From: Solirubrobacterales bacterium
GTDB taxonomy: Bacteria > Actinomycetota > Thermoleophilia > Solirubrobacterales > 70-9
Assembly: GCA_013821475.1 (NCBI GenBank)
Contig: JACDGU010000001.1
Location: forward strand, 1 to 50,633
Direction of reading: 5' to 3'
Length of the DNA: 50,633 bases
The notes beneath the pieces are model-generated. The model was not told the DNA's origin and did no database searches. It worked only from the letters and a program-made list of their open reading frames with translations. Each line of letters opens with the position of its first letter. The stretch's first letter is position 1. This document shows, one piece after another, positions 7,375 to 49,555 of the stretch. The translations under genes were made by a program, and so were the position numbers.

Positions 7375-8924
<1,550 letters not shown>

Positions 8925-8948
8925 CTGCTGCCTTTCGAGTCTGATGAT

Positions 8949-9013: not shown

Positions 9014-9049
9014 CGGTAATTCGCCCGATTGCCTCGTAAAGACGCTGCA

Positions 9050-10003: not shown

Positions 10004-10089
10004 GTTGGGGAAGTATGCCCGATCAAACGAAGGTGTCTACCTTCGCGGCCTCGAATCACGCCTGAAACCAAGCAAAGGAGCAGGAACCG

Positions 10090-10905: not shown

Positions 10906-10913
10906 CCCGGCGC

Positions 10914-15841: not shown

Positions 15842-17428
<1,587 letters not shown>

Positions 17429-17494
17429 GGGACCTCTCCTTCTCGACTCGAATCGAATGGCCTCTGTCTCTCGCGGCTATCGCGCCGCCCAGCG

Positions 17495-33058: not shown

Positions 33059-33604
33059 CTACTCGGCGCCTCGCGCTATCGCGATCTCGCCGGTGCGGAC
33101 CATTTCGACCAGGCCGTGGGGACGGATCATCCGCTCGAAGGCCTCGATCTTGTCGGCCGAGCCGGTCACCTCGATCGTCATCGTGCGGCGGGCGACGTCG
33201 ACGATCTTGGCCCGGAAGATCTCGGCGAACTGGATGATCTCGGCCCGGTTCTCGACCGCCGAGGAGACCTTGAACAGCGCCATCTCGCGGGCCACCGTCT
33301 CGTCGGGCTCCATGTCGCGGATCTTGAGAACGTTGATGAGCTTGTGCAGCTGCTTGGTCACCTGGTCGATCGGGTGGACGGCGCCGTCGAGGGTGAGCGT
33401 GATCCGCGAGATGCTGGGGTCGTCGGTCGGGCCGACGGCGAGGGTGTCGATGTTGAAGCCGCGACGCGAGAACAGGCCGGCGACGCGGGCCAGGACGCCG
33501 GGCTTGTTCTCGACCTGGATCGAGAGGATGTGCTTGCGGCCGGTCAGCTGACCCGGCAGGTGCAGGTCTTCGAGCTTGACGACCTGTGGAGTTCCGGCCT
33601 CCAT
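33059..33604 (-). CDS. ilvN: acetolactate synthase small (regulatory) subunit
   Basis: Contains ACT and ACT-like domains (HILSIQVENKPGVLARVAGLFSRRGFNIDTLAVGPT). ATG 33604 overlaps the ilvB TGA (ATGA). Confidence 0.9.
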   Translation of the reverse strand: MEAGTPQVVKLEDLHLPGQLTGRKHILSIQVENKPGVLARVAGLFSRRGFNIDTLAVGPTDDPSISRITLTLDGAVHPIDQVTKQLHKLINVLKIRDMEPDETVAREMALFKVSSAVENRAEIIQFAEIFRAKIVDVARRTMTIEVTGSADKIEAFERMIRPHGLVEMVRTGEIAIARGAE

Positions 33605-35301
33605 CAGCGCACCGCCCTCGGCGCCTCGACCATGTCGCGGGCGGCTTCGCCCGGGGCGATCATCGGGTAGACGTTCTCCTCCTGGGCGACGCGGACGTCG
33701 AGCAGGACCGGGCCCTCGGTCTCCAGCGCCTTGACCATCGTCTCCTCGAGGTCGGCGGAGCTCTCGCAGCGCATGCCGGTCGCGCCGAAGGCCTCGGCCA
33801 GCTTCACCCAGTCGGGGCTGGCGCCCATCTCGACCGAGCTGTAGCGGCGATCCCAGAACAGCTCCTGCCACTGGCGGACCATGCCCATGTAGCCGTTGTT
33901 CATGAGGAAGATCTTCACCGGGATCCGCTCGGTGACGCAGGTCGCGAGCTCCTGCACGTTCATGATCAGGCTGCCGTCGCCGGCGAGGCAGACGACCGTC
34001 TCGGCGGGGCAGGCGACCTTGGCGCCGACCGCCGATGGCAGGCCGAATCCCATCGTCCCGAGACCGCCGGAGTTGATCCAGCGCCGCGGCTTGTCGAAGC
34101 CGTAGTACTGCGCCGCCCACATCTGGTGCTGGCCGACGTCGGAGGTGATGATCGCGTCGCCCTGGGTCGCCTTGTGCAGCGTCTCGACCATGAACTGCGG
34201 CTTGATCTCGCCGTCCTTGCCGGGCTCGTAGAAGAGCGGGTGCTCCTGCTGCCAGCCGCGGATCTGGTTCCACCAGGAGTCCAGGCGCGAGGAGTCGGTC
34301 TGCAGCGCCCGGTACTCGCGGGTCAGTTTCGGCAGCACCAGCTTGACGTCGCCGACGATCGGGATGTGGGCGCCGACGTTCTTCGAGATCTCCGCCGGGT
34401 CGACATCGATGTGGATGATCTTTGCGTGCGGCGCGAACTCGGCCAGCTTGCCGGTGATGCGGTCGTCGAAGCGGGCACCGATCGCGACGATCAGGTCGGC
34501 CTTGTCCATCGCCCAGTTGGCGGTAAAGGTGCCGTGCATGCCGAGCATCCCAAGCCAGTTGTCGCCCGAGGCCGGGTAGGCGCCGAGCCCCATCAGAGTC
34601 GAGGTGACCGGGAAGCGGTCGGAGGCGGCGAGCTCGCGCAGCTCCTCGGAGGCGTTGCCGTTGATGACGCCGCCGCCGCTGTAGAAGATCGGCCGGCGGG
34701 CGTTGGCCAGCGCTTTGGCGGCGATCCGGATCTGTTTGATGTTGCCCTCGGTCGAGGGCTTGTAGCCCGGCAGGTCGACCGGCTCGGTCCGCGGCTGGTA
34801 GTCGATGTCCGCCCGCGAGAGGTCCTGCGGGATGTCGAGCAGCACCGGTCCCGGGCGCCCGGTCGAGGCGATGTGGAAGGCCTCGTGGACGTACTCGGGG
34901 ATCTGGCGCGCATCGGTGGCCTGGAAGGAGTGCTTGACGAAGGGCAGCGTCGCGCCGAGGATGTCGGCCTCCTGGAAGCCGTCGGTACCGATCAGCTCGG
35001 TTCGCACCTGGCCGGTGATGAAGACGGTCGGGACCGAGTCCAGCATCGCGTCGGCGATCGCCGTCACCAGGTTGGTGGCGCCGGGGCCGGAGGTTGCGAA
35101 GGCGACCCCGACCCGGCCCGAAGCCTTGGCGTAGCCCTCGGCGGCGTGGCCGCCGCCCTGCTCGTGACGGACCTGGACGTGGCGGAAATCGGCGTCGACG
35201 AGCGCGTCGTAGGTCGGCAGGTTGGCCCCACCGGGGATCCCGAAGACGTCTTTGACGCCCTCGGCCTTGAGCGATTCCATCAGCGTGTCGGCTGCTCTCA
35301 T
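33604..35301 (-). CDS. ilvB: acetolactate synthase large (catalytic) subunit
   Basis: 565 aa ThDP/FAD enzyme (GIPGGANLPTYDAL, GPGATNLVT, GLGTMGFGLPSAVGAK, GDGS...NVQEL). Confidence 0.93.
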   Translation of the reverse strand: MRAADTLMESLKAEGVKDVFGIPGGANLPTYDALVDADFRHVQVRHEQGGGHAAEGYAKASGRVGVAFATSGPGATNLVTAIADAMLDSVPTVFITGQVRTELIGTDGFQEADILGATLPFVKHSFQATDARQIPEYVHEAFHIASTGRPGPVLLDIPQDLSRADIDYQPRTEPVDLPGYKPSTEGNIKQIRIAAKALANARRPIFYSGGGVINGNASEELRELAASDRFPVTSTLMGLGAYPASGDNWLGMLGMHGTFTANWAMDKADLIVAIGARFDDRITGKLAEFAPHAKIIHIDVDPAEISKNVGAHIPIVGDVKLVLPKLTREYRALQTDSSRLDSWWNQIRGWQQEHPLFYEPGKDGEIKPQFMVETLHKATQGDAIITSDVGQHQMWAAQYYGFDKPRRWINSGGLGTMGFGLPSAVGAKVACPAETVVCLAGDGSLIMNVQELATCVTERIPVKIFLMNNGYMGMVRQWQELFWDRRYSSVEMGASPDWVKLAEAFGATGMRCESSADLEETMVKALETEGPVLLDVRVAQEENVYPMIAPGEAARDMVEAPRAVR

Positions 35302-35350
35302 CGGACTGGCGATCCTACCAGCGGCGGCACGCCTGGCCCCAGGCAGGCGC

Positions 35351-36526
35351 CTACGCCTGCGCTGCAGGAGATTTCGCCGGGTTCCAGCGGGTGCGGGGAT
35401 CGATCGAGGACTCGATCGCGTTCCCCTTGTAGCGCTCGATCGTGTGCAGCAGCGACTCGACCAGCTCCTCGCCCAGCAGCGTCGGCTCGAGACCGAGATC
35501 GAGCAGCTTGGTGTGGATCGGGTTGTAGTAGTGCTCTTCCTTCTCCACCCGGGGGTTGTCGTAGTGCTGGATCTCGACCGTGTAGCCGAGGTGCTCGGCG
35601 GCGCCCTTGACCAGCCCGGCCAGCTGCATCACCGAGAAGTGCTCGGTGAACTGGTTGAAGACGCGGAACTCGCCGACCGGGGCCGGGTTGGTCACCGCCA
35701 GCTCGACACAGGCGAGGGTGTCGCGGATGTTGAGGAAGCCGCGGATCTGCTGGCCGGCGCCGTAGACGGTCAGCGGGTGGCCGATCACCGCCTGCAGGCA
35801 GAAGCGGTTGAGCACGGTGCCGAACAGCTCGTCGTAGTCGAAGCGGGTGAGCAGGCGCTCGTCGCCGGCGGTCTCGTCGCTCTCGATCCCGTAGACGACT
35901 CCCTGGTTGAGGTCGGTCGCGCGCAGGCCCCAGGTGCGACAGGCGAAGTGGATGTTGGTCGAGTCGTGGACCTTCGCGCAGTGGTAGAGCGAGCCGGGCA
36001 GCTTCGGGAACGGCAGGTTGTCCTTGCGCCCCTTGTGCTCGATCTCGATGTAGCCCTCCTCGATATCGATGTTGGGCTGGCCGTACTCGCCCATCGTCCC
36101 GAGCTTGACCAGGTGCGCATCGGGGACGTGGTCGCGCATCGCGAAGAGCAGGTTGAGGTTGCCGATCGTGTTCGCGTACTGGGTCTCGACCGCGGTCTCG
36201 CGGGAGATCATCGAGTAGGGCGCGGAGGCCTGCTGGCCGTAGTGGATCACCGCCTCGGGGCGGGTCTCGGCGACGACCTCGTCGAGGAAGTCGCCGTCCT
36301 CGATCGCGCCGACGTAGCTGGGGATGCGCTTGCCGGAGACCTGCTCCCAGGCGTCGATCCGGTCCTCGAGGTCGGCGATCGGCGTCAGCGAGCCGGAGCC
36401 CGCGTCGCGCACCCAGCGGCGCCGGGAGAAGTTGTCGACGACGCTGACCTCGTGGCCGCGGGCCGAGAAGCGGAGGGCCGTCGGCCACCCCAGATAGCCG
36501 TCGCCGCCAAGGATCAGAACTCGCAT
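35351..36526 (-). CDS. sqdB: UDP-sulfoquinovose synthase (SQD1/SqdB/Agl3 family SDR)
   Basis: 391 aa. It matches my recollection of plant SQD1 along the whole length: GGDGYLGW, SAPYSMI, HLVKLGTMGEYGQPNIDIEEGYI, LYHCAKVHDS (the YHxxK catalytic block), WGLRATDLNQGVVYG, GHPLTVYG, EFRVFNQFTE, NPRVEKEEHYYN. Confidence 0.85.
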   Translation of the reverse strand: MRVLILGGDGYLGWPTALRFSARGHEVSVVDNFSRRRWVRDAGSGSLTPIADLEDRIDAWEQVSGKRIPSYVGAIEDGDFLDEVVAETRPEAVIHYGQQASAPYSMISRETAVETQYANTIGNLNLLFAMRDHVPDAHLVKLGTMGEYGQPNIDIEEGYIEIEHKGRKDNLPFPKLPGSLYHCAKVHDSTNIHFACRTWGLRATDLNQGVVYGIESDETAGDERLLTRFDYDELFGTVLNRFCLQAVIGHPLTVYGAGQQIRGFLNIRDTLACVELAVTNPAPVGEFRVFNQFTEHFSVMQLAGLVKGAAEHLGYTVEIQHYDNPRVEKEEHYYNPIHTKLLDLGLEPTLLGEELVESLLHTIERYKGNAIESSIDPRTRWNPAKSPAAQA

Positions 36527-36555
36527 AGGCGCGGCAGCTTAGTTGAATCCGGACG

Positions 36556-37911
36556 ATGGCAAACGGACTGACGGCGCGCAACGGGGGACGATTCGGCCTG
36601 GCTGCCCTGGTCGCGATCCTGCTGCTGGGCGCCGGTTTGCGCGTCGGCGAAGCCTGGGACGGGCGGGCGCCGGTCTACGACGCCGCGGCCTACGCGGCGA
36701 TCGCAAGGAACCTCGACCAGGGCAACGGGTTCACCGTCGGCGCCGGCGCGACCCAGCCCTCGAGCAACTACTCCCCCGGCCTGCCGCTGCTGACGGCGGG
36801 CGTCTACGAGCTCAGCGGCAGCGTCCACGAACGGCTGGCGCGAGTGCTGCTGGCACTGGTCGGCACGCTCTCGGTCCTCTTCGCCTACCTCCTCGGCCGC
36901 CGCCTCTCGCGTTTCCTTAATTCACCTCGCCATAGCGAGGTCAACACTGGAAACGTCGTCGCCGGGCTGATCGGCGCCGCCGCGGTGGCGATCTACCCGG
37001 CACTGCTCGAGTACCAGGGGATGCTGATGAGCGAGCCGCTGGCGGCGTCGCTGCTCTCGGGCGCGGTGCTGGCGATGTTCTGGGCTGCGGCTCGCGGCGG
37101 CCTGCTCCGCTGGCTCCTGCCCGGCATCCTGCTCGGGGCGCTGGCGATGGTGCGACCCGAGTACCTCGGGGTCGCCGTCCTGCTCGGGCTGGTGGTGCTC
37201 GCGCGGGGGCTCCGGGACGACTGGAGCCGTTCGCTGGCCGCGGCGGCGGTCCTGGTCGCGGGGGTCGTCGTCGTGGTCGCGCCCTGGACGATCCGCAACG
37301 CGGTGGCGCTCGACCGGATGGTGCCGATCTCGACCGGCAGCGGGCAGGTGCTGTTCGCCGGCACCTACCTCCCCTCCGACGGCAACCCGGAACGGGTTGG
37401 CGAGGAGGTCGTCGCCGAACATCCCCGGCTCTTCGCCTCAGGCGACGCAGAACGGCTGCGGCTGGAGCAGATCCTGGCGACCCTCGCCGCGCACCGCTAT
37501 CCCGAACTGGAAAGCGACGCGGCGCTCTCGAAGATGGGCAAGGAACAACTCTGGGACGACGTCAGCGAAGAGCCGCTGGAAACGTCCGGCTTCGTCGCCG
37601 CCAAGGTCGGCAGGATCTGGTCGCACGGGCCGCGGGCGGTGATGCGCGAGCCGGTCTGGGAGGCGCTGCACTGGGTACTGCTCGTCCTCGGCCTGCTCAG
37701 CCTCGCCGTGCTCGCCTGGTGCCGGCGCTGGGAGGCGCTGGTGATCGGCGCTGTCTTCCTCGCGATCACCGCGATCAGCGCCCTGCTGGTCGCCTCACCG
37801 CGCCGGGTCCTGGTCCTGGTGCCGCTGCTCGCCGCCCTCGCCGGGAGCGCCACGGTCCGGCTCTGGGCCGAGGCTCACAAGTGGAAGCTCGGTCGCGCGC
37901 CTTCCCAGTAG
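36556..37911 (+). CDS. GT-C fold membrane glycosyltransferase (GT39/PMT_2, ArnT-like), paralog 1
   Basis: 451 aa with at least 9 predicted TM helices. The first-loop acidic/aromatic motif is present (YDAAAYAAIARNLDQGNGF), along with a W..RN motif (APWTIRNAVALDRMVPISTGSG) shared with paralog 2. Confidence 0.75.
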   Translation: MANGLTARNGGRFGLAALVAILLLGAGLRVGEAWDGRAPVYDAAAYAAIARNLDQGNGFTVGAGATQPSSNYSPGLPLLTAGVYELSGSVHERLARVLLALVGTLSVLFAYLLGRRLSRFLNSPRHSEVNTGNVVAGLIGAAAVAIYPALLEYQGMLMSEPLAASLLSGAVLAMFWAAARGGLLRWLLPGILLGALAMVRPEYLGVAVLLGLVVLARGLRDDWSRSLAAAAVLVAGVVVVVAPWTIRNAVALDRMVPISTGSGQVLFAGTYLPSDGNPERVGEEVVAEHPRLFASGDAERLRLEQILATLAAHRYPELESDAALSKMGKEQLWDDVSEEPLETSGFVAAKVGRIWSHGPRAVMREPVWEALHWVLLVLGLLSLAVLAWCRRWEALVIGAVFLAITAISALLVASPRRVLVLVPLLAALAGSATVRLWAEAHKWKLGRAPSQ

Positions 37912-38567
37912 AGGTCGCCGAGCTTGCCGGCGGAGTAGGCGTAGTAGAAGGTCCCGTGGCCGCTGAGGTGGAAGATCGCGCTGCCGGCTTTGTTCGCGGA
38001 GCGGGTCTTGCCGCCGGAGATTTCGTAGCCGTATTCGTCGGTGACGGCGATCTTGACCGGTTCGCTGGTCCCCTTGACGGTGATCTTGACCCGGCCGCCG
38101 CCGAGCTTGGTGACGCTGGTCGAGAGCTGGCGCGAGACCTGGGCTTCGACCGCGGTGGCCGAGACGCCGAGCTTTTCGTCGGCGACGGTTTCGAACTTGA
38201 GGCCGATCCGGCTCGAGGTCTTGACCGGCAGCGAGAAGCTGCCGTTGGCCTTGGCGGTAATCGTCCTGGTCGAGGTCGGTTCGAGGTCGAAGGCGCCTTC
38301 GCCGGCCGGAGTCCAGGAGATGAAGGTGACGGTGATCTTCGCCGCCACCGCCTTGCCGGAGTCGCTGCGGACCGTGCCGGTGACCGTCCGCGGCTTGCCG
38401 ACCGCGGCGGCGCAGAGGACGGTGCCGAGGCTGTCCTGGTTGCGCGATCCCGTGCCGCCGCAGGCGAGCTTGATCGTCGCGGCCGAAGCGGTCGCAGCGA
38501 AGAGGAGGATGCCCAGCGCCGCAAGTGCGGCGAGGAGGGCGAGGCGGTTCAGGCGGGGACGGTTCAT
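37875..38567 (-). CDS. secreted Ser/Thr/Lys-rich beta-sandwich-like protein; function unknown
   Basis: 230 aa starting at ATG 38567, with signal peptide MNRPRLNRLALLAALAALGILLFAATASA. Contains a CarboxypepD_reg-like segment (TVTGTVRSDSGKAVAAKITVTF). Its 3' end overlaps the convergent GT-C gene by 37 nt. Confidence 0.65.
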   Translation of the reverse strand: MNRPRLNRLALLAALAALGILLFAATASAATIKLACGGTGSRNQDSLGTVLCAAAVGKPRTVTGTVRSDSGKAVAAKITVTFISWTPAGEGAFDLEPTSTRTITAKANGSFSLPVKTSSRIGLKFETVADEKLGVSATAVEAQVSRQLSTSVTKLGGGRVKITVKGTSEPVKIAVTDEYGYEISGGKTRSANKAGSAIFHLSGHGTFYYAYSAGKLGDLYWEGARPSFHL

Positions 38568-38642
38568 CCGGGGAGTCTCCTGGCTCGGACGGCGGGACGA
38601 AGGCGGCGGCAGCATATGCGACCCGGATAGCCTGAGCCGCCT

Positions 38643-40013
38643 GTGAGTGCCGTCGCCGACCGGATCCGCGCGCTGTCCCAGCGCCACGGGCGCAGAGTGC
38701 TGATCGCGCTGTCGCTGATCGCCGTGCTCGGCCTCGGCCTGCGCGCCTACGCGGTGGTCGACCCCGTCGCCAACCCGGCCGACGACTCGCACGCCTATTA
38801 CGCGCTCTCCAAGGCGCTCTACGAGGAAGGCAGCTACGGCGGCCCGACCTTCCACGACTCAAGCGACTGGTCGCCGGGCGCGCCACTGCTCTACGCGGCC
38901 GGCTTCTACGCCACCGGCGGGCCGCGCGAAGGCACCGCGCGGATCATCGAGGCGCTGATGGGGGTGGCCGCGATCTTCGTCGTCTTCCTGCTCGGCGAGC
39001 GCCTCGGCGGGCGCTGGGTCGGCCTCTTCTCCGCCTTTGCGGTCGCCGTCTACCCGCCGTTCATCCACTCCACCGGCGAGCTGATGAGTGAGCCGCCGGC
39101 GATTCTCACCCTGCCGGCGGCGGTGCTCGCCTTTCTCTGGGCGAGCGAGCAGGAGCGGCTGCGCGCCTGGCTGGTGCCGGGGCTGCTGTTCGGCCTGACC
39201 GCGATGTTCCGGCCCGAGTACCTGCTGGTCGCCGCCGCCTTCGTCGTCCTTGCCGCGGTCAGGGTCGGCTTCGCCCGCGGTTGGAAGCCGGGACTCGCCG
39301 GCGCCGCGCTGCTGCTGGCCGCGCTGCTGGCGCCGATCGTGCCCTGGACGATCCGCAACGTCGACGTGCTCGGCCGCGTGGTGCCGATCTCGACCGGTAG
39401 CGGCAAGGCGCTCTACGTCGGCACCTACCTGCCGGCCGATGGCGAATACCAGCGGGTCAAGGCGCTGCTCTACGAACGCTACGAAGGCAAGTCGCTGCCA
39501 CCTGACTCCGAAGCGCTGAACGAAGTCAACCCGACGCCGCTCTTCAACCGCGTCGCCAAGGAATACAAGGCCGAACAGGGGGAACCCGACCTGCCGCGCG
39601 ACTCGGCGCTGGGCAGGGTCGGCAAGCAGAACTTCTCCAAGTACTTCGGCGAAGACCCGATGGGCTACCTGGCGATGACGGTGCGCAAGGTCGGGCGGAT
39701 GTGGTCAAGCGGCGTCGGCGCGGCGATGAGCAGCACCCTCGGCCGCGGCATCCAGATCCTGCTGGTGGTGCTCGGATTGGTCGGTTTCGTCCTGCTCGGG
39801 CTGCGCCGGCGCTGGTGGGAGCTGATCGCGCCGGCGACGCCGATCGTGCTCGTCACCCTGGTCGGCGCCGCCTCGCTGGCGGCCCCCCGTCGCAACGAGG
39901 TGCTGATGACGCTCGTCTTTCCGCTTGCCGGGCTGGCCCTGGTTTCCGCGGCCACGGCCATATCCTCCGGTCGCGAATGGTCCCCCAGGCAGGCATCTTC
40001 CCCTCCGAGCTGA
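38643..40013 (+). CDS. GT-C fold membrane glycosyltransferase (GT39/PMT_2, ArnT-like), paralog 2
   Basis: 456 aa with a GTG start. Motifs are DDSHAYYALSKALYEEGSYGG and VPWTIRNVDVLGRVVPISTGSG, and the protein is multi-TM. Confidence 0.75.
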   Translation: MSAVADRIRALSQRHGRRVLIALSLIAVLGLGLRAYAVVDPVANPADDSHAYYALSKALYEEGSYGGPTFHDSSDWSPGAPLLYAAGFYATGGPREGTARIIEALMGVAAIFVVFLLGERLGGRWVGLFSAFAVAVYPPFIHSTGELMSEPPAILTLPAAVLAFLWASEQERLRAWLVPGLLFGLTAMFRPEYLLVAAAFVVLAAVRVGFARGWKPGLAGAALLLAALLAPIVPWTIRNVDVLGRVVPISTGSGKALYVGTYLPADGEYQRVKALLYERYEGKSLPPDSEALNEVNPTPLFNRVAKEYKAEQGEPDLPRDSALGRVGKQNFSKYFGEDPMGYLAMTVRKVGRMWSSGVGAAMSSTLGRGIQILLVVLGLVGFVLLGLRRRWWELIAPATPIVLVTLVGAASLAAPRRNEVLMTLVFPLAGLALVSAATAISSGREWSPRQASSPPS

Positions 40014-41044
40014 CCGCGCTGCGCAGCGCCGGCCTGCTGATCGGCCTGGCGATCGTCGCCTACACCCTCGCTCGCCGCCGCTCGCTGCGCAACGCCGACG
40101 TCCTGATCCTCCTGCTCGCCGGGCTCGGGCTGATCCTCGTCACCGGCACCGAAGCGGTCGACGGCCTGCTCTCGGCCTTCTCCTTCGAAAAGGGCAACGG
40201 CGGCCGCATCCTCGGCCTCGCCGTGTTCGCGATCTTCATCCTCTTCCTGATGATCCTGCGGGCGCTCTCGCAGGCCTCGCGCAACTCGCGCCAGCTCTCA
40301 GCTGCGCTCGAGGGCCTGGCCTGGGAGGAGTTCCGCCAGGCGGGCAACCCGGAGCGCTTCCGCGGCAAGATCGCGATCCTGGTCCCCGCCTACAACGAGG
40401 CCGAAAACATCGGCCAAGTGCTCGACCAGATGCCGGCCGATGTCTGCGGCCTCGCCACCGCGACGCTGGTCCTCGACGACGGTTCGCGCGACGGGACCGG
40501 CGACGTCGCCGTCGCCCACGGAGCGACGGTCGCCCGCCACGTCACCAACCGCGGTGGTGGCGCGGCGCTGCGCACCGGCTACCGGCTGATGGTCGACTCC
40601 GGCGCCGAGATCGTCGTCACCCTCGATGCCGACGGCCAGCACCTGCCCGCGGAGATGGAGAGGCTGGTCAAACCGGTGCTCGACGGCGAGGTCGACGTCG
40701 CCCACGGCTCGCGCGTCCTCGGCCACGCCGACCGCAACCATTTCGCCCGCGAGCTCGGCATCGTCTTCTTCAACCGCCTCGTCTCCTTCATCACCCGCAC
40801 CCACGTCACCGACTGCTCCAACGGCTACCGCGCCGTCCGCACCACCGTCCTGCCGCAGCTGGTCCTGCGCCAGGAGCAGTTCCACACCTCCGAGTTCATG
40901 ATCGAGGCGATCAAGCGGGGGATCCCGGCCAAGGAGATCCCGATCACGGTCGAACAGCGGCTGCACGGGCACTCGAAGAAGCCGGCGGTGTTCCGCTACG
41001 GCGTCGGCTTCGCCAACGCGATCTTCAGAACCTGGCTGCGCTGA
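39977..41044 (+). CDS. GT2 polyprenyl-phosphate sugar synthase-like glycosyltransferase (Ppm1/GtrB/ArnC type) fused to an N-terminal DUF2304-like membrane domain
   Basis: The N-terminal ~95 aa hold three hydrophobic helices and a coiled segment. The GT-A core follows (ILVPAYNEAENI, VLDDGSRDGT, VTLDADGQH). The start is set at ATG 39977 and overlaps the preceding gene by 37 nt; it is uncertain. Confidence 0.75.
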   Translation: MVPQAGIFPSELTALRSAGLLIGLAIVAYTLARRRSLRNADVLILLLAGLGLILVTGTEAVDGLLSAFSFEKGNGGRILGLAVFAIFILFLMILRALSQASRNSRQLSAALEGLAWEEFRQAGNPERFRGKIAILVPAYNEAENIGQVLDQMPADVCGLATATLVLDDGSRDGTGDVAVAHGATVARHVTNRGGGAALRTGYRLMVDSGAEIVVTLDADGQHLPAEMERLVKPVLDGEVDVAHGSRVLGHADRNHFARELGIVFFNRLVSFITRTHVTDCSNGYRAVRTTVLPQLVLRQEQFHTSEFMIEAIKRGIPAKEIPITVEQRLHGHSKKPAVFRYGVGFANAIFRTWLR

Positions 41045-41062: not shown

Positions 41063-41347
41063 CTACCGAACGCCCGGGTGCCGCACGGCCGCCGGGTCGG
41101 GCAGGTACAGGTCGGTGCCGCAGCGCGGGCAGACCTGGACGTAGAGCTTCAGCGCCTTGGTGCAGGTCGGGCACTGGCGTTCGGGTTCGTCCTTCTCCAC
41201 CCGGTAGAGGACGACGGCGACGAGGCCGAGGATCGGCAGCACCGCTCCGACCAGGAACCAGATGAAGAAGGAGCTGCCCTTGCTGCGGCCGACGATCGCC
41301 GTGGCGAGGCCGAAGAAGAAGACGATGACGAGGTACTCGAGGCCCAT
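41063..41347 (-). CDS. small membrane protein with a C-terminal zinc-ribbon
   Basis: 94 aa with two TM helices followed by CPTC-x12-CPRC. Confidence 0.6.
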   Translation of the reverse strand: MGLEYLVIVFFFGLATAIVGRSKGSSFFIWFLVGAVLPILGLVAVVLYRVEKDEPERQCPTCTKALKLYVQVCPRCGTDLYLPDPAAVRHPGVR

Positions 41348-41463
41348 GCGCCCACATTGTGGCGGGTCGGCGACTAGGCCTTACGTCCAGGCAGACCGAC
41401 ACGGCTAAGCCCCGGCGGCCTATGGCCGACAACTGAAAGAGGGCCAGCCGGCCACCCTCGTCT

Positions 41464-43047
41464 ATGGCGATTCCCCAGACCACAGGTCGCAAGAACAAGA
41501 GCAGGCGGCACGCCCACCGCAAGCAGAAGCACGTCTGGAACGACAAGCACTGGCGCTGGGTCCCGACCGCCGACGGCGACTGGCGGGTCCAGGGCTACGT
41601 CTTTCACCACAAACACAAGCCTGCCAAGCACCACTTCCGCGGCCCCGGGCCGAAGCCGGTGCGGCGGCTGGCGGCAGCCGCGGCGCTCAACCCCGATCCG
41701 CGCCCGGCGGGGGCCTACCAGGGCCCCTTCGGCCACGACCAGGCGGTGCGACTGCTGAACCGGGCGGGCTTCGGCCCCAGCCTCGGCCAAGCCGACCCGC
41801 TCGCCTCGCTCGGTCTCGTCGGCGCGGTCCAGTCGTTGACCAGACCCAGCGGCGCGGCGATCCTGAGCGGGCCGGCGCCGGTCGACGACAACGGCAAACC
41901 GCTCGCCCCCGCCGACTCCTGGGGCCACGACCACCTCTGGTGGCTGGACCGGATGGTGCGCAGCAACCAGCCGCTGGTCGAGCGCATGGCGCTGGTCTTC
42001 CACGACTGGTTCGCGACCTCGAAGCGCGGCGTCTCCAAGCAGCAGCAGATGATCGACCAGTCGAACCTCTTCCGCGCCGCCTGGGGCGGCTCGTTCCTCG
42101 ACCTGTTCAAGGCGGTGGCGATCGATCCGGCGATGCTGCAATGGCTGAACGGCGCCGAAAACGAGAAGTGGGCGCCGAACGAGAACTTTGGCCGCGAGAT
42201 GATGGAGCTGTTCAGCCTCGGTGCCGACCGCGGCGCCTATACCGAGGACGACGTGCGCGAACAGGCGCGGGCGCTGACCGGCTGGCGCAACGACTGGTCG
42301 AACGAACTCGGTGCCCACAACTTCCGCTTCGAACCCGGCTGGCACGACACGGGCAGCAAGTCCGTCTTCGGCCGCAGCGGCAACTGGGGCTGGGAAGACG
42401 CCTGCCGACTGTGTGTCGAACACCCCCTCCATCCCTCCTTCTTCGTCGACAAGCTGTGGAGCTACTTCGTCCCCACGCCGGCCCCCGAACCCCTGCGCGC
42501 CAGCCTGATCGACACCTACGTCGGCTCCGGCTGGCAGATCCGGCCGGTGTTGGAGACGATCCTGATGAGCCCGGCGCTCTACGAAGGGCCGCCGATGGTC
42601 AAACCGCCGGTGGTGCAGCTGGCTGGGATGCTGCGCGCGGTCGGCCGCTACATCGACACCACCGCCTGGGTCTGGCTCTGCGAACCGGCCGGCCAGGTGC
42701 TCTTCCTGCCGCCCAATGTCGCCGGCTGGGACGACTCGCGCTGGCTCGACACCTCGCGCATGCGCGCCCGCTGGAACATCGTCGACTACGTCCTCGACGG
42801 GATCTCCGTCGACGCCTGGCGGCGGCCCTACAGCACGACCGAGACCGCTGAGGAAGCGCTGGCGCGGGCGCTGGGCTCGTGGGGCTCGCCGGGCCTGCGC
42901 GAAGAACATCGCGCCGAGCTCCTCGAATTCGCCCGCCGCGCCGAAAAACAAGTTTCCGCCAACTGGCAGAAGGGCCCCTACCGGGCGATGCGCCAGAACG
43001 CCCTCCTGCAGCTGATCGGTATCAGCCCCGACCTGATCCTGCAATGA
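41464..43047 (+). CDS. DUF1800 domain protein
   Basis: 527 aa with family blocks (LLNRAGFGP, FHDWFATS, GREMMELFSLG...YTEDDVREQARALTGW). The N-terminal ~65 aa are unusually His/Lys/Arg-rich. Confidence 0.8.
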   Translation: MAIPQTTGRKNKSRRHAHRKQKHVWNDKHWRWVPTADGDWRVQGYVFHHKHKPAKHHFRGPGPKPVRRLAAAAALNPDPRPAGAYQGPFGHDQAVRLLNRAGFGPSLGQADPLASLGLVGAVQSLTRPSGAAILSGPAPVDDNGKPLAPADSWGHDHLWWLDRMVRSNQPLVERMALVFHDWFATSKRGVSKQQQMIDQSNLFRAAWGGSFLDLFKAVAIDPAMLQWLNGAENEKWAPNENFGREMMELFSLGADRGAYTEDDVREQARALTGWRNDWSNELGAHNFRFEPGWHDTGSKSVFGRSGNWGWEDACRLCVEHPLHPSFFVDKLWSYFVPTPAPEPLRASLIDTYVGSGWQIRPVLETILMSPALYEGPPMVKPPVVQLAGMLRAVGRYIDTTAWVWLCEPAGQVLFLPPNVAGWDDSRWLDTSRMRARWNIVDYVLDGISVDAWRRPYSTTETAEEALARALGSWGSPGLREEHRAELLEFARRAEKQVSANWQKGPYRAMRQNALLQLIGISPDLILQ

Positions 43048-43060
43048 CCTGGAGCAGATC

Positions 43061-44410
43061 GTGAAGAACAACTGCTGCGACGAGTACACCCGCTCCCAAC
43101 TGCTGCGCTCGGCCGCGGCCGAAGCCGGCAAGGGCCTGCCGGCGATCGAGGTCGGGATGCCAGAGCCGGCGGGGACCGGGCTCTCGCGGCGGCGGTTCCT
43201 CTCGCGCAGCGCCGGGCTGGCGCTGGCCGTCTACGGCGCCTCGAAGATCCCGCTCTCGGCCTTCGAGACCGGGATCGCCCAGGCGGCGCCGACCGACAAG
43301 GTCCTGGTCTCGGTCTTCTTCGAAGGCGGAATCGACGCGCTCAGCCTGTTGGCCCCGGTCGGCGACCCGAAGTACGCCCAGCTGCGCCCGAAACTGGCCG
43401 AGGCACCCGGCTCCGGGACCAGCTTCAGCGAGGACTCGCGCCTGCAGTGGCACCCGGCGGCCGCCGGGCTGGCGACGCTGCACGACGAGGGCAAAGTCAG
43501 CTCCTTCCCGGCGATCGGCTACGACCACCCCGACCAGTCGCACTTCACCTCACGCCACTACTACGAGATCGGCCAGCTCGAGGTCGGGTACCGGACCGGC
43601 TGGCTGGGCCGCTACATCGACGCCGTCGGCGACGACGAAAACCCGCTGCAGGGGCTCTCGATGGACGGCTCGCTCTCGCCGATGATCGCCACCGCGGAAA
43701 AGCCGGTGGCGGCGATCGACAGCGTCGACGGGTACGACCTCTGGTCGGCGGTGAGCGAACCGATCCAGAGCGAGATGTTCAACAGCTTCGCCCGCTTCGG
43801 CTCGCTGCCCTCGGACTCGCCGGGGCTGGCCCAGGTCCGCCACGCGACCTCCCAGACCGACAAGCTGCGAACCGAACTCGGCGGCGTCGGCAAAGCCAGC
43901 AGCCCAGTCGAATATCCCGACACCGACTTCGGCCACAAGCTCGCCGGCCTCGCCGCCTACCTCGCCTTCGGCTTGCCGATGCGGGTGGTGACGATCCGCG
44001 CCGCGGGCAGCTACGACACCCACGCCGGCCAGGCGCCGGACCTCGAACGGAACCTGCGCGAAACCTGCGAAGGCCTGCTCGCCTTCCAGCGCGACCTCGA
44101 GAACCGCGGCCTCGCCGACCGGGTGCTGACCGAGGTCTGGAGCGAGTTCGGCCGCCGGCCCGAGGAAAACGGCTCCGAAGGCACCGACCACGGCGCCGCC
44201 GGCTGCGCATTCGTGATCGGCTCCAAAGCCAAGGGCGAAATGGTCGGCGAATTCCCCGGCCTCTCGAAACTCGACGGCGACGAAAACCTCCGCGTGACCA
44301 GCGACTTCCGGGCGATGTACTGCTCGCTGCTGGAGCAGTGGCTGGGTTACGACGCCGCCTCGATCATCCCCGGGGCCTCCGGCTTCGCCCGCCCGCCACT
44401 GGTGGCGTGA
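43061..44410 (+). CDS. DUF1501 domain protein (sulfatase/alkaline-phosphatase-like fold) with a Tat signal
   Basis: 449 aa with a twin-arginine motif (SRRRFLSRSAGLALAV). DUF1501 blocks are present (FFEGGIDALS, GSYDTHAGQ, EFGRRPEENGSEGTDHG). Confidence 0.8.
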   Translation: MKNNCCDEYTRSQLLRSAAAEAGKGLPAIEVGMPEPAGTGLSRRRFLSRSAGLALAVYGASKIPLSAFETGIAQAAPTDKVLVSVFFEGGIDALSLLAPVGDPKYAQLRPKLAEAPGSGTSFSEDSRLQWHPAAAGLATLHDEGKVSSFPAIGYDHPDQSHFTSRHYYEIGQLEVGYRTGWLGRYIDAVGDDENPLQGLSMDGSLSPMIATAEKPVAAIDSVDGYDLWSAVSEPIQSEMFNSFARFGSLPSDSPGLAQVRHATSQTDKLRTELGGVGKASSPVEYPDTDFGHKLAGLAAYLAFGLPMRVVTIRAAGSYDTHAGQAPDLERNLRETCEGLLAFQRDLENRGLADRVLTEVWSEFGRRPEENGSEGTDHGAAGCAFVIGSKAKGEMVGEFPGLSKLDGDENLRVTSDFRAMYCSLLEQWLGYDAASIIPGASGFARPPLVA

Positions 44411-49265: not shown

Positions 49266-49555
49266 CAGGCGTCGGCCTGGGGCGAGGGCACGCGGAAGGC
49301 GCCGTCCTGCGGTTCGGGCGCCGAGGCCAGCGCCACCTCCGGCGGCAGGCTCGGCCGCGGCTCATCCGCCCGCCAGACGTTCTCCAGCGCGACCACGTGC
49401 GAGGTCGGCTCGACGCCCTCGAGATCGAGGTTGGAGATCCGATCGACGTGCTCGAGGATCCCCGAGAGATCTCCGGTCATCGTCTCGACTTCGTCCTCGG
49501 TCAGCTTCAGCCGTGCCAGTCTCGCCACGTGCAGCACTTGATCGCGATCAATCAC
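49265..49555 (-). CDS. gatC: Asp-tRNA(Asn)/Glu-tRNA(Gln) amidotransferase subunit C
   Basis: 96 aa from GTG 49555 (V/MIDRDQVLHVARLARLKLTEDE), a typical GatC N-terminus. Confidence 0.85.
   Translation of the reverse strand: MIDRDQVLHVARLARLKLTEDEVETMTGDLSGILEHVDRISNLDLEGVEPTSHVVALENVWRADEPRPSLPPEVALASAPEPQDGAFRVPSPQADA

What the first reader, a model, noticed from the sequence alone, without database searches (positions are those of the whole stretch)
35351..41044. UDP-sulfoquinovose synthase paired with a polyprenyl-phosphate/GT-C glycosylation module instead of an SQDG lipid synthase
The sequence shows a full-length SQD1/SqdB-type enzyme with the TMGEYG and YHxxKVHDS catalytic blocks intact. 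It sits 29 bp from, and divergent to, a block of four genes. These are a GT39/ArnT-like GT-C enzyme, a 230-aa signal-peptide protein rich in Ser/Thr/Lys, a second GT-C paralog, and a Ppm1/GtrB/ArnC-type GT2 fused to a DUF2304-like membrane domain. The last two genes overlap. By established knowledge, bacterial and plant sqdB normally pairs with a GT4 SQDG synthase (SqdX/SQD2/SqdD), and none is present here. GT2 plus GT-C pairs load a sugar onto polyprenyl phosphate and then transfer it outside the membrane, as in Gtr, ArnC/ArnT and Ppm1/Pmt. My inference is that this locus could make polyprenyl-phosphate sulfoquinovose and sulfoquinovosylate a protein or envelope polymer, possibly the embedded secreted protein. 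As far as I know that route has not been described in bacteria; the archaeal Agl3 N-glycan pathway is the nearest precedent. The alternative is that sqdB is simply the first gene of the sqdB-ilvBN transcription unit and the GT module handles mannose or glucose.
Basis: partly seen in the sequence, partly recalled or inferred. Interest (0 to 1): 0.72.

Follow-up and report, generated by a model that had tools for sequence, protein, structure and literature searches.

The report
Sulfoquinovose lipid-carrier glycosylation gene module
A soil actinobacterium keeps the enzyme that makes the sulfo-sugar donor UDP-sulfoquinovose next to a membrane enzyme of the kind that loads sugars onto a lipid carrier, and this gene pair recurs in several unrelated bacterial groups, which suggests bacteria can decorate their envelope with sulfoquinovose rather than only make the classical sulfolipid.

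Summary
The genes are there, with one correction. The 230-aa signal-peptide ORF lies on the minus strand, converges on the first GT-C gene, and is missing from about 74 of 80 related loci. So the block is three co-directional genes (GT-C, GT-C paralog, DUF2304-GT2) divergent from sqdB.

SqdB is 58% identical to Arabidopsis SQD1, gapless over 381 residues, with the catalytic T/Y-H/K blocks intact. The GT2 family profile best matches Dol-P-mannose synthase, ArnC and GtrB. Its N-terminal domain is a divergent DUF2304 (GacJ/Rv3632 type).

Linkage within the close Solirubrobacterales relatives (78 of 80 loci) is uninformative, because the whole 20 kb, including ilvBN and the men genes, is syntenic.

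The decisive evidence comes from distant lineages. In Gaiellaceae, Myxococcota, "Desulfobia", Nitrospina and unassigned metagenome contigs (33-72% GC), a full-length sqdB orthologue lies within 1.3 kb of the DUF2304-GT2 homologue in 26 of 38 loci that could be judged. It usually sits directly upstream on the same strand, in unrelated contexts, and often with PMT_2/PMT/YfhO-type membrane proteins nearby.

This supports a route UDP-SQ -> polyprenyl-P-SQ -> GT-C transfer. Nothing is shown biochemically, the acceptor is unknown, and an unlinked GT4 SQDG synthase could not be excluded. I found no published description.

The parts
35351..36526 (-). sqdB: UDP-sulfoquinovose synthase (SQD1/SqdB/Agl3 family), 391 aa
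   Evidence: NCBIfam NF041015 matches full length (1-382 of the protein to 1-384 of 384 model positions), 486 bits, below the equivalog cut-off of 575. It is 58% identical to SQD1 1qrr with no gaps over 381 residues, and keeps GTMGEYG and YHCAKVHDS. Identity to relatives in 80 Solirubrobacterales loci is 82-88%.
36527..36555 (.). 29-bp divergent intergenic spacer between sqdB and the GT-C/GT2 genes
   Evidence: Both genes use the first start codon available in their ORF. In many related loci the match to the first GT-C begins about 30 bp from the sqdB start. No sigma-70 consensus site was found in the spacer. It is too short for two leadered transcripts, so leaderless mRNAs are inferred.
36556..37911 (+). 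GT-C paralog 1 (451 aa, polytopic membrane protein)
   Evidence: 37% identical to GT-C 2 over 441 residues, E 4e-64. The direct PMT_2 hit is weak, E 0.038. About 13 hydrophobic segments, with TM1 followed by a loop of about 55 aa and then TM2. Found in 78 of 80 related loci at 43-74% identity.
38643..40013 (+). GT-C paralog 2 (456 aa), PMT_2 family (ArnT/PMT-like lipid-phosphate-sugar-dependent glycosyltransferase)
   Evidence: Pfam PMT_2 E 5.7e-13, 49.8 bits against a gathering score of 26.1; PMT E 2e-4. The profile of GT-C 1 and 2 orthologues hits the STT3 core (E 0.005), with Asp48 in loop 1 and Glu150 invariant. Found in 78 of 80 loci at 63-82% identity. Its stop codon overlaps the GT2 start.
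39977..41044 (+). DUF2304(GacJ/Rv3632-like)-GT2 fusion (355 aa): predicted polyprenyl-phosphate sulfoquinovosyltransferase
   Evidence: Pfam Glycos_transf_2 E 1.5e-20. NCBIfam AglJ 5.7e-30, PpgS 1.5e-26, ArnC 3e-11, all below their cut-offs. The family profile hits Dol-P-Man synthase 5mlz at 7e-32, ArnC at 8e-24 and GtrB at 2e-14. The AF2 model has pLDDT 79, and its best Foldseek matches are ArnC and DPMS. The N-terminal domain scores DUF2304 E 0.11 here, while homologues pass the threshold. A sqdB orthologue lies within 1.3 kb in 26 of 38 distant loci that could be judged.

Best explanation
The locus encodes a lipid-carrier glycosylation system dedicated to sulfoquinovose.

Proposed steps:
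1. SqdB makes UDP-alpha-sulfoquinovose from UDP-glucose and sulfite in the cytoplasm. This follows from strong orthology to SQD1.
2. The DUF2304-GT2 fusion transfers sulfoquinovose to polyprenyl phosphate at the inner face of the membrane. It is an inverting GT-A enzyme of the DPM1/ArnC/GtrB/GacI/PpgS kind, with its GacJ/Rv3632-type activator fused to it. The product would be polyprenyl-P-beta-sulfoquinovose. The enzyme class is shown by homology. The sugar is inferred from the conserved sqdB-GT2 gene pair.
3. The lipid-linked sugar is flipped by an unidentified flippase.
4. The two PMT_2-type GT-C paralogs transfer sulfoquinovose to one or two extracytoplasmic acceptors: a wall or membrane glycopolymer, or proteins. 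The acceptor is unknown. The GT-C step is inferred from the family's dependence on lipid-phosphate sugar donors, from the overlap of GT-C 2 with the GT2 gene, and from GT-C genes near the pair in other phyla.

The result would be a phosphate-free anionic decoration of the envelope.
For: SqdB identity:
- 58% identical and gapless to SQD1, with the catalytic Thr and the Tyr-His-x-x-Lys block kept.

GT2 class:
- Sequence and profile matches are best to polyprenyl-phosphate glycosyltransferases: AglJ and PpgS in NCBIfam, DPMS, ArnC and GtrB in the PDB, and ArnC and DPMS by fold.
- The N-terminal domain is homologous to DUF2304. Members of that family, GacJ and Rv3632, bind and stimulate the Und-P-GlcNAc and polyprenyl-P-GalNAc synthases GacI and PpgS (bioRxiv 10.1101/180810, read).

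Gene association outside the window's syntenic clade:
- Gaiellaceae L085/L086: sqdB (68% identity) is followed on the same strand, 4-14 bp later, by the GT2 (48%), inside an envelope-polysaccharide cluster.
- Myxococcota L087: sqdB then GT2, with two PMT_2 genes upstream.
- 'Desulfobia' L088: a PMT-like gene, an epimerase, sqdB, GT2, a sulfotransferase and a flippase-like LPG_synthase_TM gene.
- A Nitrospina contig: a 388-aa epimerase-family gene overlapping the GT2, with a PMT_2 gene at the contig edge.
- L089: two sqdB copies, the GT2 and a YfhO-like gene.
- Blind metagenome scan with diverse DUF2304-GT2 queries, combined with the five loci above and L170: 26 of 38 loci that could be judged have sqdB within 1.3 kb, and in 21 it is directly upstream on the same strand. 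GC content of the pair loci ranges from 33 to 72%.
- All 42 sqdB-like genes near the GT2 in these loci keep YHxxK, and 41 keep GTMGEYG.
- Paired members are spread over the whole GT2 subfamily tree.

Within Solirubrobacterales:
- A sister clade has sqdB and the GT2 as direct divergent neighbours.
- The one locus where sqdB has moved (L062) again has a large membrane protein with a weak PMT_2 match as its divergent neighbour.

No GT4 gene was found in the window or in the annotated distant loci.
Against: - Nothing is shown biochemically, and donor-sugar specificity cannot be read from the GT2 sequence.
- Within the window's own clade the linkage is no stronger than that of sqdB with ilvBN, menF and menD, because the whole 20 kb is syntenic.
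- 11 of 38 distant loci that could be judged show no sqdB within view. Some family members may therefore use other sugars, or sqdB may lie elsewhere in those genomes.
- SqdB scores below the NCBIfam equivalog cut-off (486 against 575).
- No GtrA-, Wzx- or LPG_synthase_TM-type flippase gene is in the window.
- The sister Solirubrobacterales clade has no GT-C gene at the locus. GT-C families near the pair differ between lineages, and many neighbouring membrane proteins have no family assignment.
- Whether these genomes also carry an unlinked sqdX, SQD2 or sqdD gene could not be tested.
Confidence: 0.6

Rival explanations
1. Chance neighbourhood. sqdB belongs with ilvBN, or stands alone, and supplies UDP-sulfoquinovose to an unlinked GT4 or GT8 SQDG synthase. 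The GT2/GT-C genes form an ordinary polyprenyl-P-mannose or -glucose system (Ppm1/Pmt-like or Gtr-like).
For: In the 80 close relatives the sqdB-GT linkage is just part of a 20-kb syntenic block that also holds ilvBN, menF, menD and gatB. sqdB lies 49 bp upstream of ilvB on the same strand, with no terminator-like site between them. The GT-C genes belong to the PMT_2 family, which includes mannosyltransferases. 11 of 38 distant GT2 loci have no sqdB in view.
Against: The sqdB-GT2 pair recurs as a tight, often overlapping same-strand pair in at least five distant lineages, in unrelated contexts and without ilvBN. No GT4 gene appears in the window or in any annotated distant locus. sqdB is otherwise uncommon in non-phototrophs, so repeated chance adjacency is very unlikely; that last point is inference.
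Confidence: 0.15
2. The DUF2304-GT2 is a new sulfoquinovosyl-lipid synthase whose product is itself the end point. That product would be a beta-sulfoquinovosyl glycerolipid or a stable sulfoquinovosyl-phospho-polyprenol membrane lipid. The GT-C genes would not use it.
For: The sqdB-GT2 pair is conserved, but the GT-C genes are not always beside it: the sister clade L081-L084 has none. Some GT2 enzymes make glycerolipids; cyanobacterial MgdA is one, which is established knowledge. Replacing phospholipid with sulfolipid is a known response to phosphate limitation.
Against: The catalytic domain is closest to polyprenyl-phosphate enzymes (DPMS, ArnC, GtrB, AglJ, PpgS). It is fused to the GacJ/Rv3632-type partner of such enzymes. 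GT-C 2 overlaps the GT2 start in the window clade. PMT_2, PMT or YfhO genes lie near the pair in Myxococcota, 'Desulfobia', Nitrospina and L089.
Confidence: 0.15
3. The SqdB-like enzyme makes a different nucleotide sugar (another C6-modified or 4-keto-6-deoxy product), and the module installs that sugar rather than sulfoquinovose.
For: The NCBIfam equivalog cut-off is not reached. Agl3 can form other products in vitro depending on conditions (PMC4388408).
Against: 58% identity without a single gap to the crystallised SQD1, with the SQD1-specific His after the catalytic Tyr and the GTMGEYG block kept in essentially all paired orthologues. SQD1 and Agl3 share the activity at only about 40% identity (PMC4388408).
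Confidence: 0.05

Closest known systems
GacI/GacJ/GacK/GacL system of Streptococcus pyogenes (GlcNAc side chain of the group A carbohydrate)
   Same: A GT2 (GacI) with a DUF2304 partner (GacJ) makes sugar-P-undecaprenol. A GT-C (GacL) then transfers the sugar to a wall polysaccharide outside the membrane. GacJ-GacI fusions were already noted in Geobacter, Desulfuromonas, Desulfurivibrio and Desulfurispirillum (10.1101/180810). In Gaiellaceae L086 the order Polysacc_synt (Wzx-like), sqdB, DUF2304-GT2, large membrane protein parallels gacI-J-K-L.
   Different: The sugar there is GlcNAc taken from the general UDP-GlcNAc pool. Here a dedicated sqdB is the conserved neighbour, which points to sulfoquinovose. 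DUF2304 is fused rather than separate. The window holds no flippase gene. The GT-C genes are of the PMT_2 type and are duplicated.
PpgS (Rv3631)/Rv3632/Rv3779 of Mycobacterium tuberculosis (galactosamine on arabinogalactan)
   Same: An actinobacterial polyprenyl-P-sugar synthase (GT2) stimulated by a DUF2304 membrane protein, feeding a GT-C that decorates a wall polymer (and established knowledge). The PpgS model is the second-best NCBIfam match for the window GT2 (1.5e-26).
   Different: The window GT2 scores far below the PpgS equivalog cut-off (93 bits against 370), so it is not a PpgS orthologue. The sugar is different and the two proteins are fused.
Three-component glycosylation systems: ArnC/ArnT, GtrA/GtrB/Gtr*, CsbB/GtcA/YfhO
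   Same: The same logic applies: a cytoplasmic GT2 loads polyprenyl phosphate, a flippase moves the product across, and a GT-C transfers the sugar outside the membrane (PMC11127046 and PMC7389260, listed). ArnC is the best structural match for the window GT2.
   Different: A sulfonated hexose has not been described as cargo. The membrane anchor is an N-terminal DUF2304 instead of C-terminal helices. No flippase has been identified here.
Canonical bacterial and plant SQDG pathways (SqdB+SqdX/SQD2; SqdB+SqdD/SqdC/SqdA)
   Same: The first enzyme, SqdB/SQD1, which makes UDP-sulfoquinovose, is the same.
   Different: The partner is not a GT4 (SqdX/SQD2) or a GT8 (SqdD). It is a polyprenyl-phosphate-type GT2, plus GT-C genes. 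The predicted product is therefore not SQDG. Only the GT4 and the SqdD/C/A routes are described in the papers read (PMC13436972; 10.1101/2022.08.18.504050).
Agl3 pathway of Sulfolobus acidocaldarius (sulfoquinovose in the N-glycan)
   Same: The only established use of UDP-sulfoquinovose for a non-lipid glycoconjugate on a cell surface (PMC4388408).
   Different: It is archaeal. Sulfoquinovose is thought to be added to a dolichol-pyrophosphate-linked oligosaccharide by a membrane-bound glycosyltransferase (Agl1, predicted) and transferred en bloc by AglB. It is not carried as a monophosphate-linked single sugar and used by PMT_2-type GT-C enzymes.
Actinobacterial Ppm1/Pmt protein O-mannosylation
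   Same: A polyprenyl-P-sugar synthase plus a PMT-family GT-C in an actinobacterium.
   Different: No evidence for mannose here, no Lnt-like partner, the GT-C proteins are short (about 450 aa) PMT_2 members, and the conserved neighbour is sqdB.

Membership tests
UDP-sulfoquinovose synthase (SQD1/SqdB/Agl3) | Extended-SDR fold with an N-terminal GxxGxxG NAD site and full-length collinearity with SQD1 | tested here: met
   MRVLILGGDGYLGW lies at the N-terminus. Residues 2-382 align to SQD1 1qrr residues 3-383 without gaps, E 5e-146. Pfam Epimerase and GDP_Man_Dehyd also match.
UDP-sulfoquinovose synthase (SQD1/SqdB/Agl3) | Catalytic Thr (GTMGEYG) and the Tyr-His-x-x-Lys block, with the SQD1-specific His | tested here: met
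   KLGTMGEYG and YHCAKVHDS align with SQD1 KLGTMGEYG and YHLSKVHDS. 41 of the 42 sqdB-like neighbours keep GTMGEYG and all 42 keep YHxxK.
UDP-sulfoquinovose synthase (SQD1/SqdB/Agl3) | Score above the curated NCBIfam equivalog cut-off (NF041015) | tested here: not met
   485.8 bits against a cut-off of 575, although the match is full length.
UDP-sulfoquinovose synthase (SQD1/SqdB/Agl3) | Converts UDP-glucose plus sulfite to UDP-sulfoquinovose | not testable with these tools
   Needs an enzyme assay.
Polyprenyl-phosphate glycosyltransferases of family GT2 (DPM1/GtrB/ArnC/GacI/PpgS/AglJ) | GT-A catalytic domain with a DxD motif, most similar to known polyprenyl-P enzymes | tested here: met
   Pfam Glycos_transf_2. 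TLDADGQH and GSR motifs are invariant in the family. Best NCBIfam matches are AglJ, PpgS, Dol-P-hexose transferase and ArnC. PDB profile hits: DPMS 7e-32, ArnC 8e-24, GtrB 2e-14. Foldseek top hits are ArnC and DPMS.
Polyprenyl-phosphate glycosyltransferases of family GT2 (DPM1/GtrB/ArnC/GacI/PpgS/AglJ) | Membership of one characterised orthologous group (a curated equivalog cut-off) | tested here: not met
   All NCBIfam hits are far below their cut-offs: AglJ 105 against 325, PpgS 93 against 370, ArnC 43 against 529. It is a separate subfamily.
Polyprenyl-phosphate glycosyltransferases of family GT2 (DPM1/GtrB/ArnC/GacI/PpgS/AglJ) | Transfers a sugar from a nucleotide sugar to polyprenyl phosphate | not testable with these tools
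   Needs a membrane assay with UDP-sulfoquinovose and Und-P or decaprenyl-P.
DUF2304 (GacJ/Rv3632) accessory membrane domain | Pfam PF10066 match above the gathering score | tested here: inconclusive
   The window N-terminus scores E 0.11, 13 bits against 25.5, yet covers profile positions 9-94 of 106. Full-length homologues at 32-49% identity pass: P0134 49.8 bits, P0146 45 bits, P0131 36 bits.
DUF2304 (GacJ/Rv3632) accessory membrane domain | About 110 residues with three transmembrane helices, physically coupled to a GacI/PpgS-type GT2 | tested here: met
   The AF2 model shows helices 14-32, 39-57 and 75-121 ahead of the GT-A domain. It is fused to the GT2, as noted for other bacteria in 10.1101/180810.
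GT-C glycosyltransferases, PMT_2 (ArnT/PMT-like) | Pfam PMT_2 above the gathering score | tested here: met
   GT-C 2: 49.8 bits against 26.1. GT-C 1 reaches only E 0.038 directly, but is a clear paralog of GT-C 2 (E 4e-64).
GT-C glycosyltransferases, PMT_2 (ArnT/PMT-like) | Polytopic topology with a conserved acidic residue in the first extracytoplasmic loop | tested here: met
   9-13 hydrophobic segments, with TM1, a loop of about 55 aa, then TM2. Asp48 (the P45-x-x-D48-x-x-x-Y52 positions in loop 1) and Glu150 are invariant in 23 orthologues. Glu150 falls within the segment of the profile that matches the STT3 core.
GT-C glycosyltransferases, PMT_2 (ArnT/PMT-like) | GT-C fold shown by structure comparison | tested here: inconclusive
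   The AF2 model from a two-sequence alignment had pLDDT 39 and could not be used.
Three-component (GT2 + flippase + GT-C) glycosylation system | A dedicated flippase gene (GtrA/GtcA, Wzx-like or flippase-like LPG_synthase_TM) in the locus | tested here: not met
   None found in the window. Polysacc_synt and LPG_synthase_TM genes do lie beside the pair in L085, L086 and L088.
Canonical SQDG synthesis locus (sqdB with sqdX/SQD2 or sqdD/C/A) | A GT4 (Glycos_transf_1) or GT8 sulfoquinovosyltransferase linked to sqdB | tested here: not met
   No GT4 or GT8 gene was found in the window or in the annotated distant loci.
Canonical SQDG synthesis locus (sqdB with sqdX/SQD2 or sqdD/C/A) | A GT4 or GT8 SQDG synthase elsewhere in the same genome | not tested
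The window is a whole 50.6-kb contig, so the rest of the genome is not available.

The most novel reading that the evidence does not exclude
A third route for using UDP-sulfoquinovose, not previously described, may exist in bacteria and be widespread among non-phototrophs: Thermoleophilia, Myxococcota, a 'Desulfobia' MAG, Nitrospina and others. A dedicated DUF2304-GT2 would make polyprenyl-phosphate-sulfoquinovose, a lipid-linked sugar donor that has not been reported. GT-C enzymes would use it to sulfoquinovosylate envelope polymers or proteins outside the membrane. This would give cells a phosphate-free anionic surface and create an unrecognised pool of sulfoquinovose in soils and sediments.
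Probability: 0.5. Interest if true: 0.85.

Novelty: new variant of a known kind. Interest (0 to 1): 0.74.

Why it matters
Sulfoquinovose is counted among the most abundant organosulfur compounds. It is treated as a product of phototrophs (SQDG), plus one archaeal N-glycan.

If abundant soil and sediment heterotrophs load it onto a polyprenyl carrier and attach it to their envelopes, three things follow:
- A new lipid-linked sugar donor and a new specificity class of GacI/PpgS-type enzymes would exist.
- Bacterial surfaces could carry a sulfonate-based negative charge that costs no phosphate, much as SQDG replaces phospholipid and teichuronic acid replaces teichoic acid.
- Sulfoquinovose budgets, and the ecological reason for the many sulfoquinovose-degrading pathways in soil, would need to include non-phototroph sources.

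The hypothesis can be tested directly with two genes (sqdB plus the GT2) expressed in E. coli.

Tried and rejected
- Synteny within the clade. 78 of 80 genome loci keep sqdB next to the GT-C/GT2 genes. The whole 20 kb is collinear, including ilvBN, menF, menD and gatB, so I did not count this as functional evidence.
- The 230-aa secreted protein as target. Rejected because it is on the minus strand, has no family match, and is recognisable in only about 6 of 80 loci.
- Direct Pfam call of DUF2304 on the window protein. Not significant (E 0.11). The domain had to be established through homologues.
pLDDT 39, unusable, so no fold search was run.
- An HMM of the GT-C 1/2 subfamily. It finds these proteins only in Solirubrobacterales, plus four weak hits elsewhere. 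The GT-C partners in other phyla belong to different families or have no Pfam assignment.
- Fold search alone does not separate polyprenyl-P GT2 enzymes from GpgS-type GT-A enzymes. The assignment rests on the sequence profiles.
- Promoter and terminator scans gave nothing useful.
- Seven literature searches found no paper linking UDP-sulfoquinovose to polyprenyl phosphate or GT-C enzymes in bacteria, and none on sqdB in Thermoleophilia.

Full report
**What is in the window.** The window is a 70% GC contig from an uncultured member of Solirubrobacterales (class Thermoleophilia, Actinomycetota). The closest proteins all come from MAGs with that label. Reading-frame and third-position GC analysis, together with family searches, give this gene order:

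| Coordinates | Strand | Gene |
|---|---|---|
| 29588-31339 | + | menD-like |
| 31671-32978 | - | menF-like |
| 33059-33601 | - | ilvN |
| 33604-35301 | - | ilvB |
| 35351-36526 | - | sqdB |
| 36556-37911 | + | GT-C 1 |
| 37875-38567 | - | 230-aa ORF with a signal peptide |
| 38643-40013 | + | GT-C 2 |
| 39977-41044 | + | DUF2304-GT2 fusion |
| 41063-41380 | - | small two-helix zinc-ribbon membrane protein |
| 41464-43047 | + | DUF1800 |
| 43061-44410 | + | DUF1501 |
| 45016-46287 | - | pyridine-nucleotide-disulphide oxidoreductase-family gene |
| 46397-48010 | - | gatB |
| 47823-49361 | - | gatA |

The rest of the window holds branched-chain amino acid genes, menaquinone genes and other housekeeping genes. 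It holds no GT4 glycosyltransferase.

**Check of the observation.**
- SqdB matches the NCBIfam UDP-sulfoquinovose synthase model end to end. The score is 486 bits, below the strict equivalog cut-off of 575.
- SqdB aligns to Arabidopsis SQD1 (1qrr) over 381 residues without one gap, at 58% identity. The catalytic Thr (KLGTMGEYG) and the Tyr-His-x-x-Lys block (YHCAKVHDS) are kept.
- The divergent spacer is 29 bp.
- The two GT-C proteins are paralogs, 37% identical with E 4e-64.
- GT-C 2 passes the Pfam PMT_2 threshold. A profile of both paralogs' orthologues hits the conserved core of STT3, with Asp48 in the first loop and Glu150 invariant.
- The GT2 starts at the ATG at 39977 and overlaps the GT-C 2 stop by 37 bp.
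- The N-terminal 115 residues of the GT2 give only a sub-threshold DUF2304 match (E 0.11). Full-length homologues at 32-49% identity pass the DUF2304 threshold, so the "DUF2304-like" call stands.

The error concerns the 230-aa ORF. It is on the minus strand, converges on GT-C 1, and has a recognisable counterpart in only about 6 of 80 related loci. It is a variable insert. It is neither the fourth gene of the block nor a credible conserved target.

**Why linkage inside the clade proves little.** A scan of one genome per species with SqdB returned 80 loci, all from Solirubrobacterales MAGs at 82-88% SqdB identity. Of these, 78 keep GT-C 1 and GT-C 2 next to sqdB, and 70 show the GT2; most of the rest are cut short by contig ends. 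The whole 20 kb from gatB to menD is collinear in these genomes, however. sqdB is linked to ilvB just as faithfully as to the glycosyltransferases. This is inheritance of gene order and does not show a functional tie. The one exception is L062. There sqdB (84% identity) lies in a different context (MerR, SHMT, an AbiE toxin-antitoxin pair), yet its divergent neighbour is again a large polytopic membrane protein with a weak PMT_2 match.

**The decisive comparison.** I searched 1.8 billion representative proteins with the GT2. The DUF2304-GT2 fusion proved to be a large family, with 389 representatives below E 1e-30, many aligning end to end at 32-49% identity. I then examined the genomic contexts of progressively more distant members.
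- **Sister Solirubrobacterales clade** (GT2 71% identical). sqdB and the GT2 are direct divergent neighbours with no GT-C genes between them. The locus still sits inside the same ilvBN/gatCAB synteny.
- **Gaiellaceae**, a different order (GT2 48%, SqdB 68%). sqdB is followed 4-14 bp later, on the same strand, by the GT2. The surrounding cluster is entirely different: a Wzx-like Polysacc_synt gene, phosphodiesterase, sulfatases, sulfotransferases, an ABC exporter, DUF6077, a flippase-like LPG_synthase_TM gene and several unassigned membrane proteins with 8-12 predicted helices.
- **A Myxococcota MAG.** sqdB then GT2, preceded by two PMT_2 genes on the same strand.
- **A "Desulfobia" MAG.** A PMT-like gene, an epimerase, sqdB, the GT2 (overlapping sqdB), a sulfotransferase, and LPG_synthase_TM on the opposite strand.
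- **A Nitrospina contig.** A 388-aa epimerase-family gene overlaps the GT2 start, and a PMT_2 gene lies at the contig edge. No DNA was available to confirm that the upstream gene is sqdB.
- **L089** (phylum not assigned). Two sqdB paralogs, the GT2, a second DUF2304-GT2 and a YfhO-like protein.

**A larger, blind sample.** I scanned metagenome contigs with an alignment of 42 diverse fusions and searched the 80 returned loci for SqdB. I pooled the loci whose fused GT2 is less than 60% identical to the window's (that is, outside Solirubrobacterales) with the five loci above and L170, and kept those with enough flanking sequence to judge.

| Outcome | Loci |
|---|---|
| Full-length sqdB orthologue within 1.3 kb | 26 |
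| of these: directly upstream on the same strand, gap about -29 to +154 bp | 21 |
| of these: downstream | 1 |
| of these: divergent | 1 |
| sqdB 5.4 kb away | 1 |
| No sqdB in view | 11 |

- Six loci with an unfused GT2 also have sqdB 0.6-1.3 kb away, which leaves room for a separate DUF2304 gene.
- All 42 sqdB-like neighbours keep YHxxK, and 41 keep GTMGEYG.
- The pair-bearing loci span 33-72% GC.
- In a neighbour-joining tree of the GT2 proteins, the paired members are spread across the whole subfamily rather than confined to one branch.
- No GT4 or GT8 gene appears beside sqdB in any annotated locus.

sqdB is not a common gene in non-phototrophs. Repeated tight pairing in unrelated contexts is the classic signature of a functional couple.

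**What the GT2 does.** Its catalytic domain is closest to enzymes that transfer a sugar from a nucleotide sugar to polyprenyl phosphate.
- NCBIfam: AglJ, PpgS, haloarchaeal Dol-P-hexose transferase and ArnC.
- PDB profile search: Pyrococcus Dol-P-mannose synthase 7e-32, ArnC 8e-24, GtrB 2e-14, well ahead of soluble GT-A enzymes.
- An AlphaFold model (pLDDT 79) matches ArnC and DPMS best.
- DUF2304 is the family of GacJ and Rv3632. These small membrane proteins bind and stimulate the Und-P-GlcNAc synthase GacI and the polyprenyl-P-GalNAc synthase PpgS. Fusions of the two were already noted in several bacteria (10.1101/180810).

GT-C enzymes such as the PMT_2 family need lipid-phosphate-linked sugar donors; this is established knowledge of ArnT, PMT, GacL and YfhO. 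The most economical reading is UDP-sulfoquinovose -> polyprenyl-P-sulfoquinovose -> transfer by GT-C outside the membrane. Because the GT2 is an inverting enzyme, the lipid intermediate should be beta-linked, and a second inversion by the GT-C would give an alpha-linked final product. That stereochemistry is inference.

**What remains uncertain.**
- No activity has been shown. The GT2's sugar specificity is inferred only from its conserved neighbour.
- The GT-C step is less firmly tied to sulfoquinovose than the GT2 step. In favour: GT-C 2 overlaps the GT2 gene in the window clade, and recognised GT-C families (PMT_2 5, PMT 3, YfhO 2 of 43 large membrane ORFs) occur near these GT2 loci. Against: the sister clade lacks GT-C genes at the locus, the GT-C 1/2 subfamily is confined to Solirubrobacterales, and many neighbouring polytopic proteins have no family assignment.
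- No flippase gene is present in the window.
- The acceptor is unknown.
- I could not check whether these genomes also carry an unlinked SQDG synthase.
- About 30% of the distant GT2 loci show no sqdB in view. In those genomes sqdB may lie elsewhere, or those family members may use another sugar.

**Comparison with what is known, and novelty.**
- By mechanism this is a member of the three-component lipid-carrier glycosylation systems: GacIJKL, PpgS/Rv3632/Rv3779, ArnC/ArnT, Gtr, CsbB/GtcA/YfhO.
- What is new is the cargo and the dedicated pairing with sqdB.
- The papers I could search describe only two bacterial fates for UDP-sulfoquinovose: SqdX/SQD2, and SqdD/SqdC/SqdA, both leading to SQDG. 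They describe one archaeal fate, the Agl3-dependent N-glycan.
- No paper in the library links UDP-sulfoquinovose to polyprenyl phosphate or GT-C enzymes in bacteria, or discusses sqdB in Thermoleophilia. The library lacks most subscription journals, so a prior description cannot be ruled out.
- I rate this a new variant of a known kind, well supported by comparative genomics and directly testable. My confidence in the overall mechanism is about 0.6.

Noticed in passing
window 37875-38567 (-): A 230-aa ORF with a signal peptide and coding-type GC3 lies between the two GT-C genes on the opposite strand. Its 3' end overlaps the 3' end of GT-C 1 by 37 bp. It has no family match, only a weak CarboxypepD_reg-like hint, and is recognisable in only about 6 of 80 related loci. 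In other loci the gap between the two GT-C genes ranges from about 50 to 640 bp, so it is a variable insert.
   Followed up: partly
L062 (OY970165.1) 7591-11206: In one complete Solirubrobacterales chromosome sqdB (84% identity) has left the ilvBN/GT2 locus. It sits in a lower-GC stretch with a MerR regulator, SHMT and an AbiEi/AbiEii toxin-antitoxin pair. It faces a protein of up to 793 aa with about 12 predicted helices, a weak PMT_2 match (3.4e-4) and no BLAST similarity to GT-C 2. This looks like a relocated or acquired copy with a different membrane partner.
   Followed up: partly
L085 6229-16283; L086 1-1934; L088 5171-6109: The sqdB-GT2 pair in Gaiellaceae and 'Desulfobia' sits among sulfotransferase and sulfatase-family genes (Sulfotransfer_1/2/3, Sulfatase). 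These organisms may therefore combine sulfonated and sulfated sugars on the same envelope polymer.
   Followed up: no
L086 12909-14033; L088 6106-7065; L170 8972-9961: A stand-alone LPG_synthase_TM (MprF-type, flippase-like) gene lies beside the DUF2304-GT2 in three unrelated loci, one of which has no sqdB. It is a candidate flippase for the polyprenyl-P-sugar. No such gene is in the window.
   Followed up: no
L089 1-685, 7354-8538, 8846-9976, 10001-11062: One metagenome contig of unknown phylum (68% GC) carries two divergent sqdB paralogs (58% and 63% identical to the window's) and two DUF2304-GT2 genes within 11 kb. It also carries three mutually related unassigned membrane proteins of about 620-670 aa and a YfhO-like protein.
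   Followed up: partly
window 41464-44410: The DUF1800/DUF1501 gene pair next to the module is present in only about 22 of 80 otherwise collinear loci. It is an insertion or deletion polymorphism within the conserved block.
   Followed up: partly
window 36527-36555 and 35302-35350: The divergent sqdB/GT-C 1 spacer is only 29 bp, and its length is conserved in many loci, which implies leaderless transcripts. sqdB ends 49 bp before ilvB with no terminator-like site between them, so sqdB may be co-transcribed with ilvBN in this clade.
   Followed up: partly
window 41063-41380 (-): A small conserved protein with two transmembrane helices and a C-terminal zinc ribbon (CxxC...CxxC) lies immediately downstream of the GT2 on the opposite strand. 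It is found in 67 of 80 loci, and an unannotated ORF of about 96-98 aa occupies the same position in the sister clade. Its function is unknown.
   Followed up: no
L071 (JBLNAC010000374.1): A contig labelled 'Syntrophothermus sp.' (a Firmicute) carries the full Solirubrobacterales-type locus at 84-89% protein identity. This most likely reflects a binning error in that MAG.
   Followed up: no
window 7371-9002 and 15842-17476; 6247-7518: There are two HMGL-like/LeuA_dimer genes (probably 2-isopropylmalate synthase and a citramalate-type paralog). A lone DegT/DnrJ/EryC1 sugar aminotransferase is wedged between argH and one of them.
   Followed up: no
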